This document shows, piece after piece, positions 11,336-36,132 of a DNA stretch of 64,000 nt; position 1 is the stretch's first letter, and each line of letters starts with the position of its first letter. Source of the DNA: Raja brachyura. Its lineage: Eukaryota. The notes below the pieces were generated by a model that saw only the letters and a program-made list of their open reading frames with translations, was not told the origin of the DNA and ran no database searches. A program made the position numbers and the translations under genes. The DNA lies in assembly GCA_963514005.1 (NCBI GenBank), contig OY740797.1, positions 19,778,001-19,842,000 on the forward strand, in the 5' to 3' direction.

Positions 11336-14295
11336 CTAATCTGATGTAGAACTCGTTTAAAATGCTTCCTGCATGTCCTTGCTTGACCAAATAGTGGAAA
11401 CTGGAAGGAACCTTTAAGGGTTATATTTGATGCCAGGGTGGTGTGAGGCAGATTAAATAATTTTCTGTTCAGATTCCGTGTTTGACTGACAATAGACAAT
11501 AGGTGCAGGAGTAGGCCATTCGGACCATCGAGCCAGCACCGCAATTCAATGTGACCATGGCTGATCATCCACAATCAGTACCCCGTTCCTGACTTCCCCC
11601 CATATCCCCTAACTCCGCTATCTTTCAGACCCCTATCTAGCTCTCTCTTGAAGAACCCTATCTGGCTCTCTCTTGAAAGATAGACGGCTATTATCAATTT
11701 TCAAGCAGTAAATGACTTTGAAATCGTGTTTCGCGCTGCAATAGAATGTATCCTGTCTCTGATCAATGAACAGCACTGATAAATTACAGTACTTGGTAAA
11801 ATATGCAACGTTCTTACCCTGTTGCATCTTTAATCCGAATCTTGTGAAAAATATAATCAGAATCACAATTAACAGTCCGCCCACTACACATCCAAGAAGT
11901 TGTGTTTTGTCAGTGGTTTCTGGATCTGGCGAAACATAAGATACTGTGAACCATAGGAACACATATTCAGGAATAGGGAGAAAAGAAAGCATTTTAAGGT
12001 ATTTATCCACCCTCCCTGCATAATATATGCAATAAATTCCAGATTCAATACTTCGTTGTCACATGTGACATGTCACAGTGAAATTATTTGCTTACATACC
12101 CAAGGCACGCTTACAAAGTTACAAAGTACCCCCGCGCCAGGTCCCCATCTGTTCTCCTCCCTTCCCCTCCCCACGGCGGTCTCCCCACGCCGGGTCCCCC
12201 ATTGTCCATGAATTATAAGGTAATATTGCAATTTATCGAAGGAACAAATCACACACACGGTGGCAGATTGTAAAGAGGTTTGCTTATTAAGGTGAAAGGA
12301 TTTTATTTATTTTTACAACACAGCGCCCGATACTTTAGCCCCAAGTTCAAAATGTACGTAAAAGTTAATTTATTTCATACACTCTCGGCTGAATTTCCCT
12401 GTTCTATCAGCCATGAGCACAACGAAGCGCCAAGCTTCGCCCACAAAAGTCACCGCTGCTTCCTTTTTCCACAACTGGTGATCTGACCTGACATCTGCCT
12501 GAGCAGCTAGCGATTTATCGTACATTTTAATTCTTGTGAAATGTTTTGTGAATGCTTTAGTTATGACAGTCAGTATATACTTCCAAGGATTATCTTTCCA
12601 GTGGTGAGAGAGCAAACGATATTTACATAACTATAAGTAGCTAACACGTCAATCTTTCACTGCGTATACATGCAATTCAGATTTCCCCCTTAGTGTTTCA
12701 ACAATTGTCTACCGTATTCCTCGTGCAGGGTGTAGTTGCGTTAAATGCCTCTTGTCTTACCTTGCTCGACAACGTAGCTGAAACCTGCGGGGACTGTAAG
12801 GGATTCGTGTGATACCAGGCAGGTGTAAATGGTTTTGCCTGGAGCAGACAGCGCATCTTGCAAAACACTTGAAGCCTCATAAAATCCCTCCACAGTCCTG
12901 TTTCTCACGGTTTTTATACCAGTCATAATTTCAATGTTATTTCTTTGCCAGGTGACTTCTAATTTCTCCGGATAAAACGCCGCCGTTTTACACACGAGTT
13001 TCGGGAAATGCGGCGCACTTCCTTCAAAAAGAACAATTTTCAGTGGAGTTGGGGGAGCTGCAACAATAAATAAGAGTGTGGAATTGCAAATGTATTTAAT
13101 TACAATGAACATTTGTCGCGGAATAGTTGCCACTACCTCTTGTTATCCGTGTGGTCGTTTGTTAAGTGCATAATTTTGTTATCAATTATTTTACGGCGGA
13201 TGTAAAGATGACAAATATAATTGAGGCAAATGACAAAAGTGAACTTTCGTACTGTTACCACATGGGAATCGCGAGAAGGGATGTGACAGGTTCAGTGCGT
13301 GGTACTGAAAAGGTCCACGTAGGTACTGAAAAGGTCCAAACAAAAGGTCCTGTAGCAGAGCTTTTTTTTTTAACTTCAAAACCATACATTTCTCTGAGCG
13401 TTTGCCCCTTGTTAGATGCATGAGGTAGTTACGGAGATTTCTGGAAATTCGAGAAACATATATTTCGTTGGGTTTATAATTTGACCTGCAAATTAACAGG
13501 AGCAATCTCCGGGGCCATGTCAATATGAATTGGTAAGAAAATTCGTAGTAAAACGAAACAATAACAGAATAATGGTGGAATATTTTCAGTGTGTTCCATT
13601 ACTTTTGGAATCCCACCTCGGACGTAACTATTAAAATTATGGAAATAACTAGTTAATGCAGTTCATAATCTAGTGTTCTATGGTTTTATATTTTCCCCAC
13701 CAGTTACACTGCAACAGATAAAAATATCTCGCCTCCCGGAACAAAGACACTTACATAACACAATTAGCTGGGAGCCAGTTCCATTTCCGATAAGTTGCAG
13801 TTGATGCTTCACTCGACAGTAATATATCCCGAAGTCTACGACACTCACATTCAGCAAAGTAAATGTACTCCTTCCTTTGTATACTTTGAATTGTTTTCTG
13901 CTGTCCGGTTCCATAAATGTCTTCTCGCCCTCTCTCCACCAAGAAACGTCAGCGGTTTCTTTTAATATTGGAAATTTGCAGAACATGGACTCATTGCTGC
14001 CCCTTGAGACCCTCAGGAATGCGGGGAATTGTTCCACTTTGCTCGAAGTTGCTTTTGTCAGTGGCAGAAATAAGTAAATATGATGAAAACAGTTGCACAT
14101 ACAGCACCAAGAAAAAGAGCCAATGGATACACAAATACGAAAAAACTAGTTAACGAATTGGAGCAACGTTGTAAATTTAATTTGCTGTGGCCAACTAGTG
14201 TAAAATATTATAAAATAAGATTTGCTCTGCAAAATCGGGCCTAAACTAAGCATACCTTGACAAAGCAAAGCAAGAAGACCCATGTACCGAACCAT
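11336..14295 (-). CDS. IgSF receptor copy A: leader / VJ-type / C1 / TM / probably very short tail (SIRP-like architecture)
   Basis: Phase-1 exons with GT-AG sites: 14256-14295 (MVRYMGLLALLCQ), V 13755-14051 (297 nt), C1 12761-13057 (297 nt), TM 11818-11919 (102 nt). The last exon is uncertain; the candidate acceptor at 11340 gives D-stop. Confidence 0.88.
11490..11675 (-). mobile_element. CR1-type 3' tail fragment in a copy A intron
   Basis: GACAATAGACAATAGGTGCAGGAGTAGGCCATTCGG tail, shared with the other CR1 ends in the window. Confidence 0.75.
12761..13057 (-). CDS. Copy A exon 3: C1-set Ig domain
   Basis: LVCKTAAFYPEKLEVTWQRN, GFYEASSVL and YTCLVSHESL. TTGCAG acceptor and GTAAGA donor. 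Confidence 0.93.
13755..14051 (-). CDS. Copy A exon 2: V-set Ig domain with germline-joined J-like G strand
   Basis: MFC, VSWWR, DFGIYYC and NGTGSQLIV. Acceptor AAAAG and donor GTAAGT. Confidence 0.93.
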
Positions 14296-14562
14296 TGCTT
14301 TCACCGACATACTGCAAATGATTGGTTTGCACAAGAAAAAGGATATTATAGGATGCCTGAAGTATGTGTATCCGACACGGTGTATCACATGACTAAGGCA
14401 GCATGATGCATTTCAAGTATACAGTATTTATGCTTCCGTTGGTACGCTGGGGGAGATATGTTCCTTTAGATTTCTGACGGCAAAATGTTCTATCTCATAG
14501 CATTGCGTTGTAAAGGGCCAATTATGCATTTCAAAACTTGCAGAGGATTACTGAAAGGAAGT

Positions 14563-34900: not shown

Positions 34901-36132
34901 GTTTAAGTATTTTTACTTTCTTTAATTGATGTAATAACATCTTATTGTACTATCATTATTAATTAATAAAGCGATATCAGTTTTTTCCCTGTGCCATATA
35001 AATGATTACCAAGCAAAGCTCTATTCTACACGATGTTATAACCATGGATCATTTTTAAATAAGAAATGATATCGGAGAATTTCAGTTGTAGTTCCTTTTT
35101 TTCTTTTATCATTCCATGAACTTTCCTTGAGACTGTGAAAGTGTAAACAAAATTATCTACCTCAAAACTGTGAGATCCATTTCTCCTCCGTTTTTAGTTG
35201 ATGGGAAAGTTTGTCGGTGGGAGATTTGCAACTTTCTGGAAATTCGGAGTAACGTGAATTTGGTTGGGTATTTGAAAAGCGGGAGGTCAAAATATAATTT
35301 GGCCTTCCAATTTACAAGAGCCATAACCGGGGTAATTTCACTATGCTTTTGTAAGATAACCCGGAGTAATGAAAAACAAAACTATAACAGAACTCTCGTT
35401 GCAGTATATTGACCGACGGATAGAATATTTTTCAGTGTGTTCCCTTTATTTCAGATTTCCATCTCGGAAGTAACCATTAAAATTATAGAACTAGATAAGA
35501 TTAATATTTCCTCCACCAGCAAGCTTTGGTTACATTGCAACAGATGAACATATCCCACTACCCGTAACAAAGACACTTACTTAACACAATTAGCTGGGAG
35601 CCAGTTCCATTGCCGATAAGTTGCAATTGATGTTTCACTCGACAGTAATATATCCCGGCGTCTGCGACACTCACATTCAGCAAAGTAAATGTACTCCTTC
35701 CCTTGTCTACTTTGAATAGTTTTCTGTTGTCCGGTTCCATAAATGTCTTCTCGCCCTCTCTCCACCAAGAAACGTCAGCGGTTTCTTTTAATATCGGAAA
35801 TTTGCAGAACATGGACTCATTGTTGCCCCTTGAGACCCTCAGGAATGTGGGGAATTGTTCCACTTTGCTCGAAGTTGCTTTTGTCAGTGGCAGAAATAAG
35901 TAAATATGATTTAAACAGTTGCACATACAGCACCAAGAAAAAGAGCCAATGGATACACAAATACAAAATAATTAGGAAATAATGGTTAGCCAATTGCAGA
36001 AACGTTGTAAATCTAATTTGCTGTGGCATACTATTGTAAAATATTGACAAATATGATTTGCTTAGCGAAATCGGTTCAGAAACTAAGCATACCTTGACAA
36101 ACCAAAGCAAGAAGACCCATGTACCGAACCAT
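31988..36132 (-). CDS. IgSF receptor copy B: leader / VJ-type / C1 / TM / ITIM-bearing tail (SIRP-like inhibitory receptor)
   Basis: GT-AG exons that splice in frame: 36093-36132, 35581-35877 (V), 34019-34315 (C1), 33396-33497 (TM), 33098-33121, 32889-32932, and one starting at 32167 that ends at a donor at 32057 or reads through to TGA at 31988. Tail DLTRMVYEGINANSVEASHSVEPVRQASSEDASAYATLNLSEGKKK. Confidence 0.9.
32123..32140 (-). other. ITIM codons (SAYATL) of copy B
   Basis: Matches [SILV]xYxx[LVI] in the spliced frame. Confidence 0.8.
33875..33970 (-). mobile_element. Penelope terminal-repeat fragment in a copy B intron
   Basis: Reverse complement of the AAGGGTCTCGATCCGAAACGT...GCTGAGTTACTCCAGC motif also seen at 16.2 and 17.9 kb. 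Confidence 0.75.
34019..34315 (-). CDS. Copy B C1-set exon
   Basis: LVCKTAAFYPEELKIIWQRN and YTCLVSHVSL. 297 nt, phase 1-1. Confidence 0.93.
35581..35877 (-). CDS. Copy B V-set exon with J-like strand
   Basis: MFC, VSWWR, DAGIYYC and NGTGSQLIV. 297 nt, phase 1-1. Confidence 0.93.

What the first reader, a model, noticed from the sequence alone, without database searches (positions are those of the whole stretch)
11336..36132. Cluster of non-rearranging VJ-C1 receptors resembling an antigen-receptor chain
Seen in sequence: each gene has a single exon encoding a V domain already joined to a J-like G strand (NGTGSQLIV, equivalent to FGxGTxLxV), followed by one canonical C1-set exon, a TM exon and a tail. 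No recombination signal sequences flank the V exons. Established knowledge: C1-set domains are largely restricted to Ig, TCR, MHC/b2m, tapasin, SIRP and some B7-family members. A germline VJ-C1 membrane protein is the architecture postulated for the pre-RAG antigen-receptor ancestor, and mammalian SIRPs are V-C1-C1. Inference: this is an expanded innate immune receptor family of cartilaginous fish undergoing birth-and-death evolution (two apparently intact copies, one pseudogene, one more beyond the edge).
Basis: partly seen in the sequence, partly recalled or inferred. Interest (0 to 1): 0.75.

Follow-up and report, generated by a model that had tools for sequence, protein, structure and literature searches.

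The report
Cartilaginous-fish paired VJ-C1 immune receptor cluster
These genes belong to a large family of non-rearranging, antibody-shaped surface receptors of sharks, rays and chimaeras that come in near-identical inhibitory and probably activating pairs; they resemble mammalian SIRP receptors in signalling design and appear not to have been described as a family.

Summary
Gene C (36132-30924, minus strand) is a clean 7-exon, 342-aa leader-VJ-C1-TM receptor with three ITIM/ITSM-type tyrosines. Gene A lacks an intact ITIM tail and has a second, Arg-bearing TM exon; B is a remnant. The window is part of a family of at least 32 VJ exons on contig C17, in a human-16q-type neighbourhood (BBS2, AMFR, CBFB), away from the Ig/TCR, NKp30-like and NSFL1C (SIRP-marker) loci. 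Homologues span chimaera, sharks and rays; a coelacanth gene is the nearest outside relative. Trees place the family outside Ig/TCR/UrIg. The V domain is shortened (no C'/C'' strands) and has no Phe/Trp at the J position (0/32), so it is a derived monomer-type receptor, a weak model of the pre-RAG ancestor. Tails mirror SIRP-alpha, but SIRP orthology is unresolved. No RNA evidence; key J Immunol papers (PRARP) were unavailable.

The parts
36093..36132 (-). Gene C leader exon (ATG at 36132)
35581..35877 (-). Gene C single VJ exon; short V (Cys-Cys 54), J-like NGTGSQLIV carrying an N-glycan sequon at the J Phe/Trp position
34019..34315 (-). Gene C C1-set exon
   Evidence: PF07654 E 1.4e-7
33396..33497 (-). 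Gene C transmembrane exon, no charged residue in the membrane span (inhibitory type)
32889..32932 (-). Gene C tail exon 1 (spacer)
32057..32167 (-). Gene C tail exon 2 with ITIM-like SAYATL (Tyr272)
30924..31061 (-). Gene C last exon with ITIM LTYASL (Tyr308) and ITSM-like SVYAGV (Tyr331), 23 residues apart, and stop
14256..14295 (-). Gene A leader exon
13755..14051 (-). Gene A VJ exon (95% nt, 93% aa to gene C)
12761..13057 (-). Gene A C1-set exon (85% nt to gene C)
11818..11919 (-). Gene A TM exon 1 (uncharged)
10545..10646 (-). Second TM exon behind gene A, intact splice sites, with an Arg in the N-terminal half (alternative exon or relic of a lost neighbour)
9443..9590 (-). Decayed last-exon homologue behind gene A (tyrosines lost, stop)
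22998..23254 (-). Remnant B: frameshifted C1 exon, no V exon found
21089..21210 (-). Remnant B: decayed last-exon homologue
63216..64000 (-). 3' end of gene D (V, C1 and Arg-bearing TM lie beyond the window at C17:19.844-19.847 Mb): decayed last exon with stop and frameshift at 63216-63267 and its upstream intron

Best explanation
A chondrichthyan-wide paired-receptor family with one germline VJ-type domain, one C1 domain, a TM segment and either (i) a long tail of ITIM/ITSM units or (ii) a TM arginine and a short tail. Mechanism: the shortened V domain binds a ligand as a monomer (inferred from loss of the J Phe/Trp, usually replaced by an N-glycan sequon). Inhibitory members such as gene C are tyrosine-phosphorylated and recruit the tandem-SH2 phosphatases SHP-1/SHP-2 (inferred from motif pairs 22-23 residues apart, as in SIRP-alpha). 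Arg-TM sisters with near-identical ectodomains pair with an ITAM adaptor of the FcR-gamma/CD3-zeta type and activate (inferred from the Arg position, recalled from NKp46/GPVI/FcalphaRI). Activating copies are made repeatedly from inhibitory ones: next to the window, genes D and E carry a single GGC-to-CGC (Gly-to-Arg) TM change and a 476-bp insertion that puts a stop at the start of the ITIM exon, while their V/C1 stay 99% identical to inhibitory genes F and C (shown). This is the pattern expected when pathogens exploit a self-sensing inhibitory receptor and decoy activating partners are selected. Shown: gene structure, motifs, pairing, phylogenetic independence from Ig/TCR. Inferred: expression, splicing, adaptors, ligands.
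For: 342-aa ORF with GT-AG junctions and three Tyr motifs. 32 V and 34 C1 matches on C17 in two clusters plus one single gene. TM exon recovered for 26 of 32 V genes; 7 have an N-terminal Arg, each with an Arg-free nearest neighbour at 91-100% V identity; ITIM-type exons found behind the Arg-free partner in 5 of these 7 groups within the fetched DNA. Genes E and D: Arg codon, in-frame stop at the ITIM exon, decayed last exon; C/E V exons differ by 3 synonymous and 0 non-synonymous codons, D/F by 1 and 1, while D's TM is 94-95% like C/E and 59% like F (mosaic gene; the F TM window there was out of register, so 59% is approximate). Homologues: of 95 proteins, 23 had no called TM; TM-Arg 0 of 15 with two or more ITIM-like motifs (median tail 30 aa) versus 26 of 57 without Arg (median 79), Fisher p 6e-4. 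Four-Tyr tails spaced 22-23/13-14/23 versus SIRP-alpha 24/17/26; family tail profile scores SIRP tails 38-46 bits, shuffles under 10. Family monophyletic in V (99/98), V+C1 (99/99) and C1 (94/79).
Against: No RNA evidence: splicing and expression untested. One Arg-TM gene (C17:25.009 Mb) keeps an ITIM-type exon and 3 of 15 Arg-TM homologues have one ITIM-like motif. The Arg window was set after a cruder first pass (p 0.027), rows are automated gene models and not phylogenetically independent. Fetched DNA behind some Arg genes was short (1.8-8.8 kb), so missing tail exons are not proven there. D and E could simply be decaying copies. Adaptor and phosphatase binding are inferred from recalled analogies only.
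Confidence: 0.72

Rival explanations
1. These are the cartilaginous-fish SIRPs (true orthologues moved to another chromosome, or a 2R sister locus, since human 16q and 20 are recalled to be paralogous), with one C1 instead of two, working as CD47-type self sensors on phagocytes.
For: RefSeq names most members 'PTPN substrate 1-like/SIRP-beta-like'; ESM Atlas top clusters are SIRP-alpha (0.97, 0.96); the double ITIM-ITSM tail layout matches; best hit of a bird SIRP ectodomain in this genome is a family C1 (E 1.4e-5, barely ahead of IgH at 3.4e-5); no separate SIRP gene seen in 160 kb around the NSFL1C-type gene on C22; AU tests do not reject a family+SIRP clade (p 0.065 C1; 0.19 V); SIRPs are themselves paired receptors.
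Against: SIRP V domains score only 17-30 bits on the family V profile versus 50-52 for reptile/coelacanth VJ-C1 and 39-48 for NKp30-like exons; SIRPs form their own clade (100/95) apart from the family in the V+C1 tree; C1 groups with coelacanth and reptile VJ-C1 genes (90/82, 88/82); synteny is 16q-type, not NSFL1C-linked; one C1, shorter V.
Confidence: 0.25
2. These are shark members of an already described non-rearranging VJ-C1 family (PRARP or one of the Xenopus/reptile VJC1 genes of Ohta et al. 2019), here expanded.
For: PRARP is recalled as VJ(-C1) with ITIM/ITSM tails; the nearest outside relatives are coelacanth and turtle/lizard VJ-C1-TM proteins; 11 of 14 genome hits of the turtle protein's search and 29 of 34 of the coelacanth's are C17 family exons.
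Against: PMC10751288 (passage seen) places PRARP among VJ genes in the MHC, whereas this cluster lies among human-16q markers. The reptile VJ-C1 proteins have longer V domains (63-65) and Lys-bearing TMs. No PRARP sequence could be obtained for a direct test.
Confidence: 0.15
3. An expansion of B7-H6 (NCR3LG1)-like ligands rather than receptors.
For: Closest ray homologues are named NCR3LG1-like; the two-domain model's top structural hit is B7-H6 (Z 17.2, rmsd 4.6 over 188, within about 1 Z of several others); AU test does not reject family+B7/tapasin V (p 0.375).
Against: B7H6/tapasin-like V domains score 17-20 bits on the family V profile, form their own clade (100/94), lack the GxG J bulge and have longer V (70); the paired ITIM/Arg-TM design is that of receptors.
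Confidence: 0.05
4. Germline-joined Ig light chain or TCR genes, or direct relics of the RAG-invaded ancestor.
For: Overall V-C1 shape; profile search scores IgL V-C and UrIg2 highly; Foldseek top hits are antibody light chains (library dominated by antibodies).
Against: AU rejects family+IgL (C1 p 0.009; V p 0.036); Ig+TCR+UrIg clade 98/98 excludes the family; this genome's own joined IgL genes have FGxG and a stop after C; no F/W at J118 in 32 of 32 and fixed loop length in 28 of 32; ITIM tails; none of the top 150 V-set or C1-set hits lies on C17. Family+TCR V as sister clades was not rejected (p 0.12).
Confidence: 0.03

Closest known systems
SIRP family (SIRP-alpha / SIRP-beta1, PTPNS1)
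   Same: Single-exon VJ-type domain plus C1-set, non-F/W residue at J118, tail of two ITIM-ITSM units, clustered inhibitory and charged-TM activating paralogues with homogenised V domains
   Different: One C1 rather than two; V about 10 residues shorter; activating members use an N-terminal TM Arg (FcR-gamma/CD3-zeta type, recalled) rather than the central Lys/DAP12 of SIRP-beta1 (recalled); 16q-type rather than NSFL1C-linked locus; separate clade in trees
PRARP and amphibian/reptile/coelacanth VJ-C1 genes (Fu 2019; Ohta 2019; recalled, papers not held)
   Same: Non-rearranging VJ-C1-TM architecture; C1 domains group together (88/82); coelacanth XP_005987622 has VJ-C1-TM-ITIM-ITSM and hits this family first
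   Different: PRARP is cited as MHC-linked; this is a 32-plus gene paired cluster on a 16q-type chromosome with a shortened V; direct sequence test not possible
UrIg / UrIg2 (PMC12227049)
   Same: Elasmobranch non-rearranging single-exon VJ followed by C1
   Different: UrIg has 3 and UrIg2 up to 9 C1 domains, forms homodimers, maps to MHC/antigen-receptor complex and groups with Ig/TCR; this family has one C1, signalling tails and lies outside that clade
NKp30 (NCR3)
   Same: VJ-type domain; NKp30-like exons on C25 are the best-scoring non-family V exons of this genome on the family profile (39-48 bits); TM Arg in activating members
   Different: NKp30 has no C1 and lies on another contig; no ITIM partners known to me
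Teleost NITRs (recalled)
   Same: Large clustered paired receptor family with VJ-like domain and ITIMs
   Different: NITR second domain is I-type with its own J-like motif, not C1; not tested by sequence here

Membership tests
SIRP | V-C1-C1 ectodomain | tested here: not met
   One C1 in gene C and nearly all homologues; a second, frameshifted C1 only at C17:20.150 Mb and one two-C1 homologue P0011
SIRP | Four-tyrosine tail, two ITIM-ITSM units | tested here: met
   Spacing 22-23/13-14/23 vs 24/17/26; profile 38-46 bits; gene C itself keeps three of the four
SIRP | Monophyly of V and C1 with SIRPs | tested here: inconclusive
   Separate in free trees but AU p 0.065 and 0.19
SIRP | Linkage to NSFL1C/FKBP1A/PDYN (human 20p13, recalled) | tested here: not met
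   SEP-domain genes on C22 and C4; cluster flanked by BBS2, AMFR, GST, septin, with CBFB on the same contig
SIRP | Binds CD47 | not testable with these tools
   No binding assay; no CD47 sequence obtained
Germline-joined IgL / TCR | FGxG/WGxG J motif with Phe/Trp118 and full V with CDR2 | tested here: not met
   0 of 32 with F/W; Cys-Cys 54-60 in 73 of 73 homologues; model lacks C'/C'' strands
Germline-joined IgL / TCR | Nests within Ig/TCR clades | tested here: not met
   Ig+TCR+UrIg 98/98 without the family; family+IgL rejected p 0.009 and 0.036; only 3 TCR V and no TCR C sequences were in the trees
UrIg/UrIg2 | VJ plus three or more C1 domains, MHC/AgR-complex linkage | tested here: not met
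   One C1; locus on C17 among 16q markers; UrIg-like P0071 (label assigned by eye) groups with Ig/TCR in V
PRARP / VJC1 genes | Sequence orthology to chicken/reptile/Xenopus PRARP | not testable with these tools
   No named PRARP sequence obtained; papers not held
PRARP / VJC1 genes | MHC linkage (as stated in PMC10751288) | tested here: not met
   16q-type markers; NKp30-like exons lie on C25
B7-H6 (NCR3LG1) | B7-type V without J bulge, groups with B7/tapasin | tested here: inconclusive
   Low profile scores and separate clade, GxG present; but AU p 0.375 and top structural hit
NKp30 (NCR3) | Single V domain, no C1 | tested here: not met
   C1 exon present; NKp30-like genes found separately on C25
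NITR | V plus I domain with second J-like motif | tested here: not met
   Second domain is C1-set only; no NITR sequence was compared
Paired activating/inhibitory receptor families (functional kind) | Clustered genes with near-identical ectodomains and opposite TM/tail modules | tested here: met
   Seven Arg/non-Arg sister groups at 91-100% V identity; association across homologues
Paired activating/inhibitory receptor families (functional kind) | Demonstrated adaptor and phosphatase coupling | not testable with these tools
   Needs cell assays

The most novel reading that the evidence does not exclude
This is the main, so far unrecognised paired NK/myeloid receptor complex of cartilaginous fish: an ancient gnathostome VJ-C1 lineage (kept in coelacanth, lost or unrecognisable in most bony vertebrates) that is the 2R sister or ancestral one-C1 form of SIRP, uses a VNAR-like C'/C''-less single domain for recognition, and regenerates activating partners from inhibitory genes again and again by a one-base TM change plus tail truncation.
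Probability: 0.3. Interest if true: 0.78.

Novelty: new variant of a known kind. Interest (0 to 1): 0.57.

Why it matters
Cartilaginous fish have no well-described large paired inhibitory/activating Ig-type receptor complex comparable to KIR/LILR, SIRP or NITR (my recall; no such paper in 10 library searches). A conserved 30-plus gene family in chimaera, sharks and rays gives concrete candidates for missing-self and phagocyte control in the oldest lineage with adaptive immunity, adds a VJ-C1 lineage that models of antigen-receptor and SIRP origin must place (it lies outside the MHC paralogons those models stress), and shows the birth of activating partners at nucleotide resolution. It also shows that current automatic names (SIRP-like, NCR3LG1-like, Ig-lambda-like, tapasin-like, class-II-like) all label one family.

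Tried and rejected
RNA: the look-up of sequencing runs listed no RNA holder; the 4 of 6 listed runs laid were contigs covering introns with no exon-exon joints, so nothing on splicing. CD47: two Pfam searches of the genome (PF04549, PF08204) found nothing, but the tool's controls did not ring either, so no conclusion. Proteasome family search did not help with synteny. PDB sequence searches with the V are swamped by multi-domain I-set proteins, and Foldseek by antibodies: uninformative for kinship. V-only model: top structural hits NCAM2 Ig1 Z 14.7, VNAR Z 14.4, basigin 14.0, CD79b 13.4, all tied within about 1. Search with the coelacanth protein found only itself. Reedfish chromosome 9 gene list shows no Ig-receptor names beside AMFR, BBS2 or septin-7-like; its one SIRP-like name lies in another block; names only, so not proof of absence. 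Literature: 10 searches found no description of this family; seen as passages: PMC10751288 (plus supplement tables), PMC12227049 (passages and section 13), PMC11599192, PMC8455134; PMC3964593 supplement term searches only (no SIRP, CD47, FCER1G, CD247 hits). Not held, so not read: Fu 2019 PRARP, Ohta 2019, UrIg 2023, Flajnik 2012, Ohta and Flajnik 2015. bioRxiv supplements could not be seen. Earlier scan findings: none. Tree caveats: about 100 columns per domain, backbones open; one search was a quick tree; outgroup labels were set by eye, and P0086/P0090, labelled IgH, are tapasin/B7-like and butyrophilin-like. Complex prediction was not used. Left flank of cluster 2 was not identified.

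
Full report
Observation. Six-frame translation found two V-like and two C1-like open frames on the minus strand. Splice-site mapping gives gene C seven exons (36132-36093, 35877-35581, 34315-34019, 33497-33396, 32932-32889, 32167-32057, 31061-30924), all GT-AG, reading as one 342-aa frame: leader, VJ, C1, uncharged TM and a tail with SAYATL, LTYASL and SVYAGV at Tyr272, 308 and 331. 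Gene A (14295-11818) has intact leader, VJ, C1 and TM exons but no middle tail exons; a second TM exon with an Arg follows at 10646-10545 and a decayed last exon near 9590-9443. B is a frameshifted C1 plus a tail relic, without V. The 3' end of a fourth gene, D, sits at 63216-64000. Pfam confirms C1-set for both C exons; the V scores better as I-set/Ig_2 than V-set. No RSS lies near the V exons, whereas real V segments of this genome end in the heptamer. The rest of the window is transposon debris by eye.

Family size and place. The window is G000:C17:19,778,001-19,842,000. The V exon finds 33 matches, 32 on C17, in clusters at 19.69-20.28 Mb and 24.72-25.11 Mb and one gene at 16.79 Mb; the C1 exon finds 35 matches, all on C17. 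Several C1 exons are frameshifted. Cluster 1 is flanked by BBS2 and AMFR on one side and a GST on the other, cluster 2 by a septin, and CBFB lies at 17.5 Mb. The reedfish chromosome 9 table of PMC10751288 lists AMFR, BBS2, CBFB and septin-7-like among human-16q genes, so C17 is the 16q counterpart. Ig/TCR loci (none of the top 150 V-set or 150 C1-set hits is on C17), NKp30-like exons (C25) and the NSFL1C-type SEP gene that marks the amniote SIRP locus (C22, identity by recalled sequence) are elsewhere, and 160 kb around the latter held no V or C1.

Distribution. A search with a ray homologue returned 679 proteins at E up to 0.001, 47 up to 1e-30. All family-level proteins whose names I retrieved are chondrichthyan: Callorhinchus, Heptranchias, Heterodontus, Scyliorhinus, Mustelus, Mobula, Narcine, Hypanus (about 30 of the roughly 100 were named). 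Their automatic names scatter over SIRP-like, NCR3LG1-like, Ig-lambda-like, tapasin-like and class-II-like. The nearest outside protein is coelacanth XP_005987622 (VJ-C1-TM-ITIM-ITSM; C1 69-70 bits on the family profile, where other outsiders reach at most 55), and 29 of its 34 hits in this genome are C17 family exons.

What it is not. In the V tree the family is a clade (99/98) and Ig+TCR+UrIg another (98/98). AU tests reject family+IgL for C1 (p 0.009) and V (p 0.036); family+TCR V, +SIRP and +B7/tapasin are not rejected (p 0.12, 0.19, 0.375), so deep kinship is open. C1 groups with the coelacanth gene (90/82) and with coelacanth/turtle/lizard VJ-C1 proteins (88/82) (93 in the quick tree). 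The V is derived: Cys-Cys spacing 54-60 in 73 of 73 homologues against 63-71 in SIRP, reptile VJ-C1 and B7H6-like proteins; the AlphaFold model of gene C's V (pLDDT 94) has no C'/C'' strands and sits structurally between I-set domains, VNAR and CD79b. None of 32 exons has Phe/Trp at the J position, 23 of 32 carry an N-glycan sequon there, and the F-G loop has one length in 28 of 32. This argues for a monomeric receptor and against a faithful relic of the RAG-invaded gene, for which PMC12227049 (section 13) proposes UrIg2.

Paired receptors. This is the main new result. Gene E (C17:19.87 Mb) has a V identical in protein to gene C and a 98% identical C1, but its TM codon GGC has become CGC (Arg), a 476-base insertion with TGTAG...CTACA ends gives a stop two codons into the ITIM exon, and the last exon is decayed. 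Gene D shares that TM and insertion but carries the V and C1 of inhibitory-type gene F (99% nt), a mosaic. Genome-wide, TM exons were recovered for 26 of 32 V genes; 7 have an Arg in the N-terminal half, and each has an Arg-free nearest neighbour with 91-100% V identity. Two of them read NCxRIxxG, recalling the FcR-gamma-coupled TMs of NKp46 and GPVI (recalled). ITIM-type exons were found behind Arg-free genes and, in one exception (25.009 Mb), behind an Arg gene. Among 95 homologues (11 cluster duplicates dropped, 23 without a called TM), 0 of 15 TM-Arg proteins versus 26 of 57 others have two or more ITIM-like motifs (p 6e-4; tails 30 vs 79 aa); the rule was refined after a first pass (p 0.027) and rows are related, so the p value is indicative.

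Likeness to SIRP. Full tails have four tyrosines spaced 22-23/13-14/23, against 24/17/26 in bird and bat SIRP-alpha and 23/15/26 in a lungfish SIRP-like protein; the family tail profile scores those tails 38-46 bits, shuffles under 10, and two turtle ITIM receptors 7-19 (no other unrelated four-tyrosine control was at hand). The Atlas ranks SIRP-alpha clusters first. Yet SIRP V domains score 17-30 bits on the family V profile, below reptile/coelacanth VJ-C1 (50-52) and NKp30-like exons (39-48), SIRPs form a separate clade, have two C1 domains and another locus. It works like SIRP; membership is not shown. A 2R sister relationship (16q versus 20, recalled paralogy) remains possible.

Mechanism, committed. 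Inhibitory members bind a self or cell-surface ligand through the short V domain and recruit SHP-1/SHP-2; Arg-TM sisters with the same binding face signal through an ITAM adaptor, probably as counter-measures to pathogens that engage the inhibitory form; duplication, conversion and exon shuffling keep the pairs matched. Structure and pairing are shown; expression, ligand, adaptor and phosphatase are inferred. No RNA data were available.

Novelty. Ten library searches found no description. PMC11599192 lists the known joined-VJ genes as CD79, NITR, SIRP, CD8, NKp30 and PRARP, and PMC10751288 places PRARP and UrIg in the MHC. The J Immunol papers on PRARP and VJC1 genes could not be read, so a passing earlier mention cannot be excluded. 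Verdict: a real, sizeable, apparently uncharacterised paired VJ-C1 receptor family; new variant of a known kind; interest 0.57.

Noticed in passing
G000:C12:61585158-61587929 (L134, L135); a second C1 at C12:61741569: Another non-rearranging VJ-C1 gene: full-length V with an E-I-P-P-P CDR3 motif (the CD28H-type motif of PMC11599192, whose members are said to have a single V) followed about 2 kb later by a strong C1-set exon with a splice donor. Candidate PRARP/VJC1 or CD28H-like V-C1 gene; not part of the C17 family in trees.
   Followed up: partly
G000:C8:88.24-89.24 Mb (L143); homologue P0082: Cluster of tandem joined VJ exons grouping with sigma-cart-like IgL V (98/93); a related protein has six repeated V domains. 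Possibly a multi-V non-rearranging Ig-like gene.
   Followed up: no
G000:C30:11.87-12.93 Mb (L128-L131) and C29:1.5-2.4 Mb (L132, L133): Arrays of germline-joined Ig light-chain genes (about 26 on C30), canonical FGxG or FSPG J and C exons ending in a stop; used as controls.
   Followed up: partly
G000:C25:36.19-36.81 Mb (L136-L139): Cluster of divergent NKp30-like VJ exons; one has human NCR3 as best single-domain PDB match.
   Followed up: partly
L036:415-890 and L037:4944-5253: 476-base insertion with TGTAG...CTACA ends (solo-LTR-like) that truncates the ITIM exon of genes D and E; no other copy in the DNA fetched.
   Followed up: partly
G000:C17:20060342-20069944 and 16788020-16801044: Two divergent members with a PWWIxxC TM; homologues P0047/P0049 have lysine-rich tails without tyrosine motifs, a third signalling type.
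   Followed up: no
window 13756-14052: Gene A's V has D-F-G in place of the conserved D-A/S-G before the F-strand YYC and 7 amino-acid versus 5 synonymous codon differences from gene C, while its C1 is far more diverged (85% nt): V-exon gene conversion or relaxed selection.
   Followed up: partly
G000:C17:19.57-19.65 Mb: BBS2 lies downstream of AMFR on the same strand, the reverse of the human order as I recall it; a gypsy-type element with long open frames sits in an AMFR intron (L076-L077).
   Followed up: no
window 16400-17700, 25400-26900, 18635-20381, 40100-42000, 49500-51300, 96-3344: Retrotransposon remains (Penelope-like, L1/Tx1-like, CR1/L2-like by eye) between the genes.
   Followed up: no
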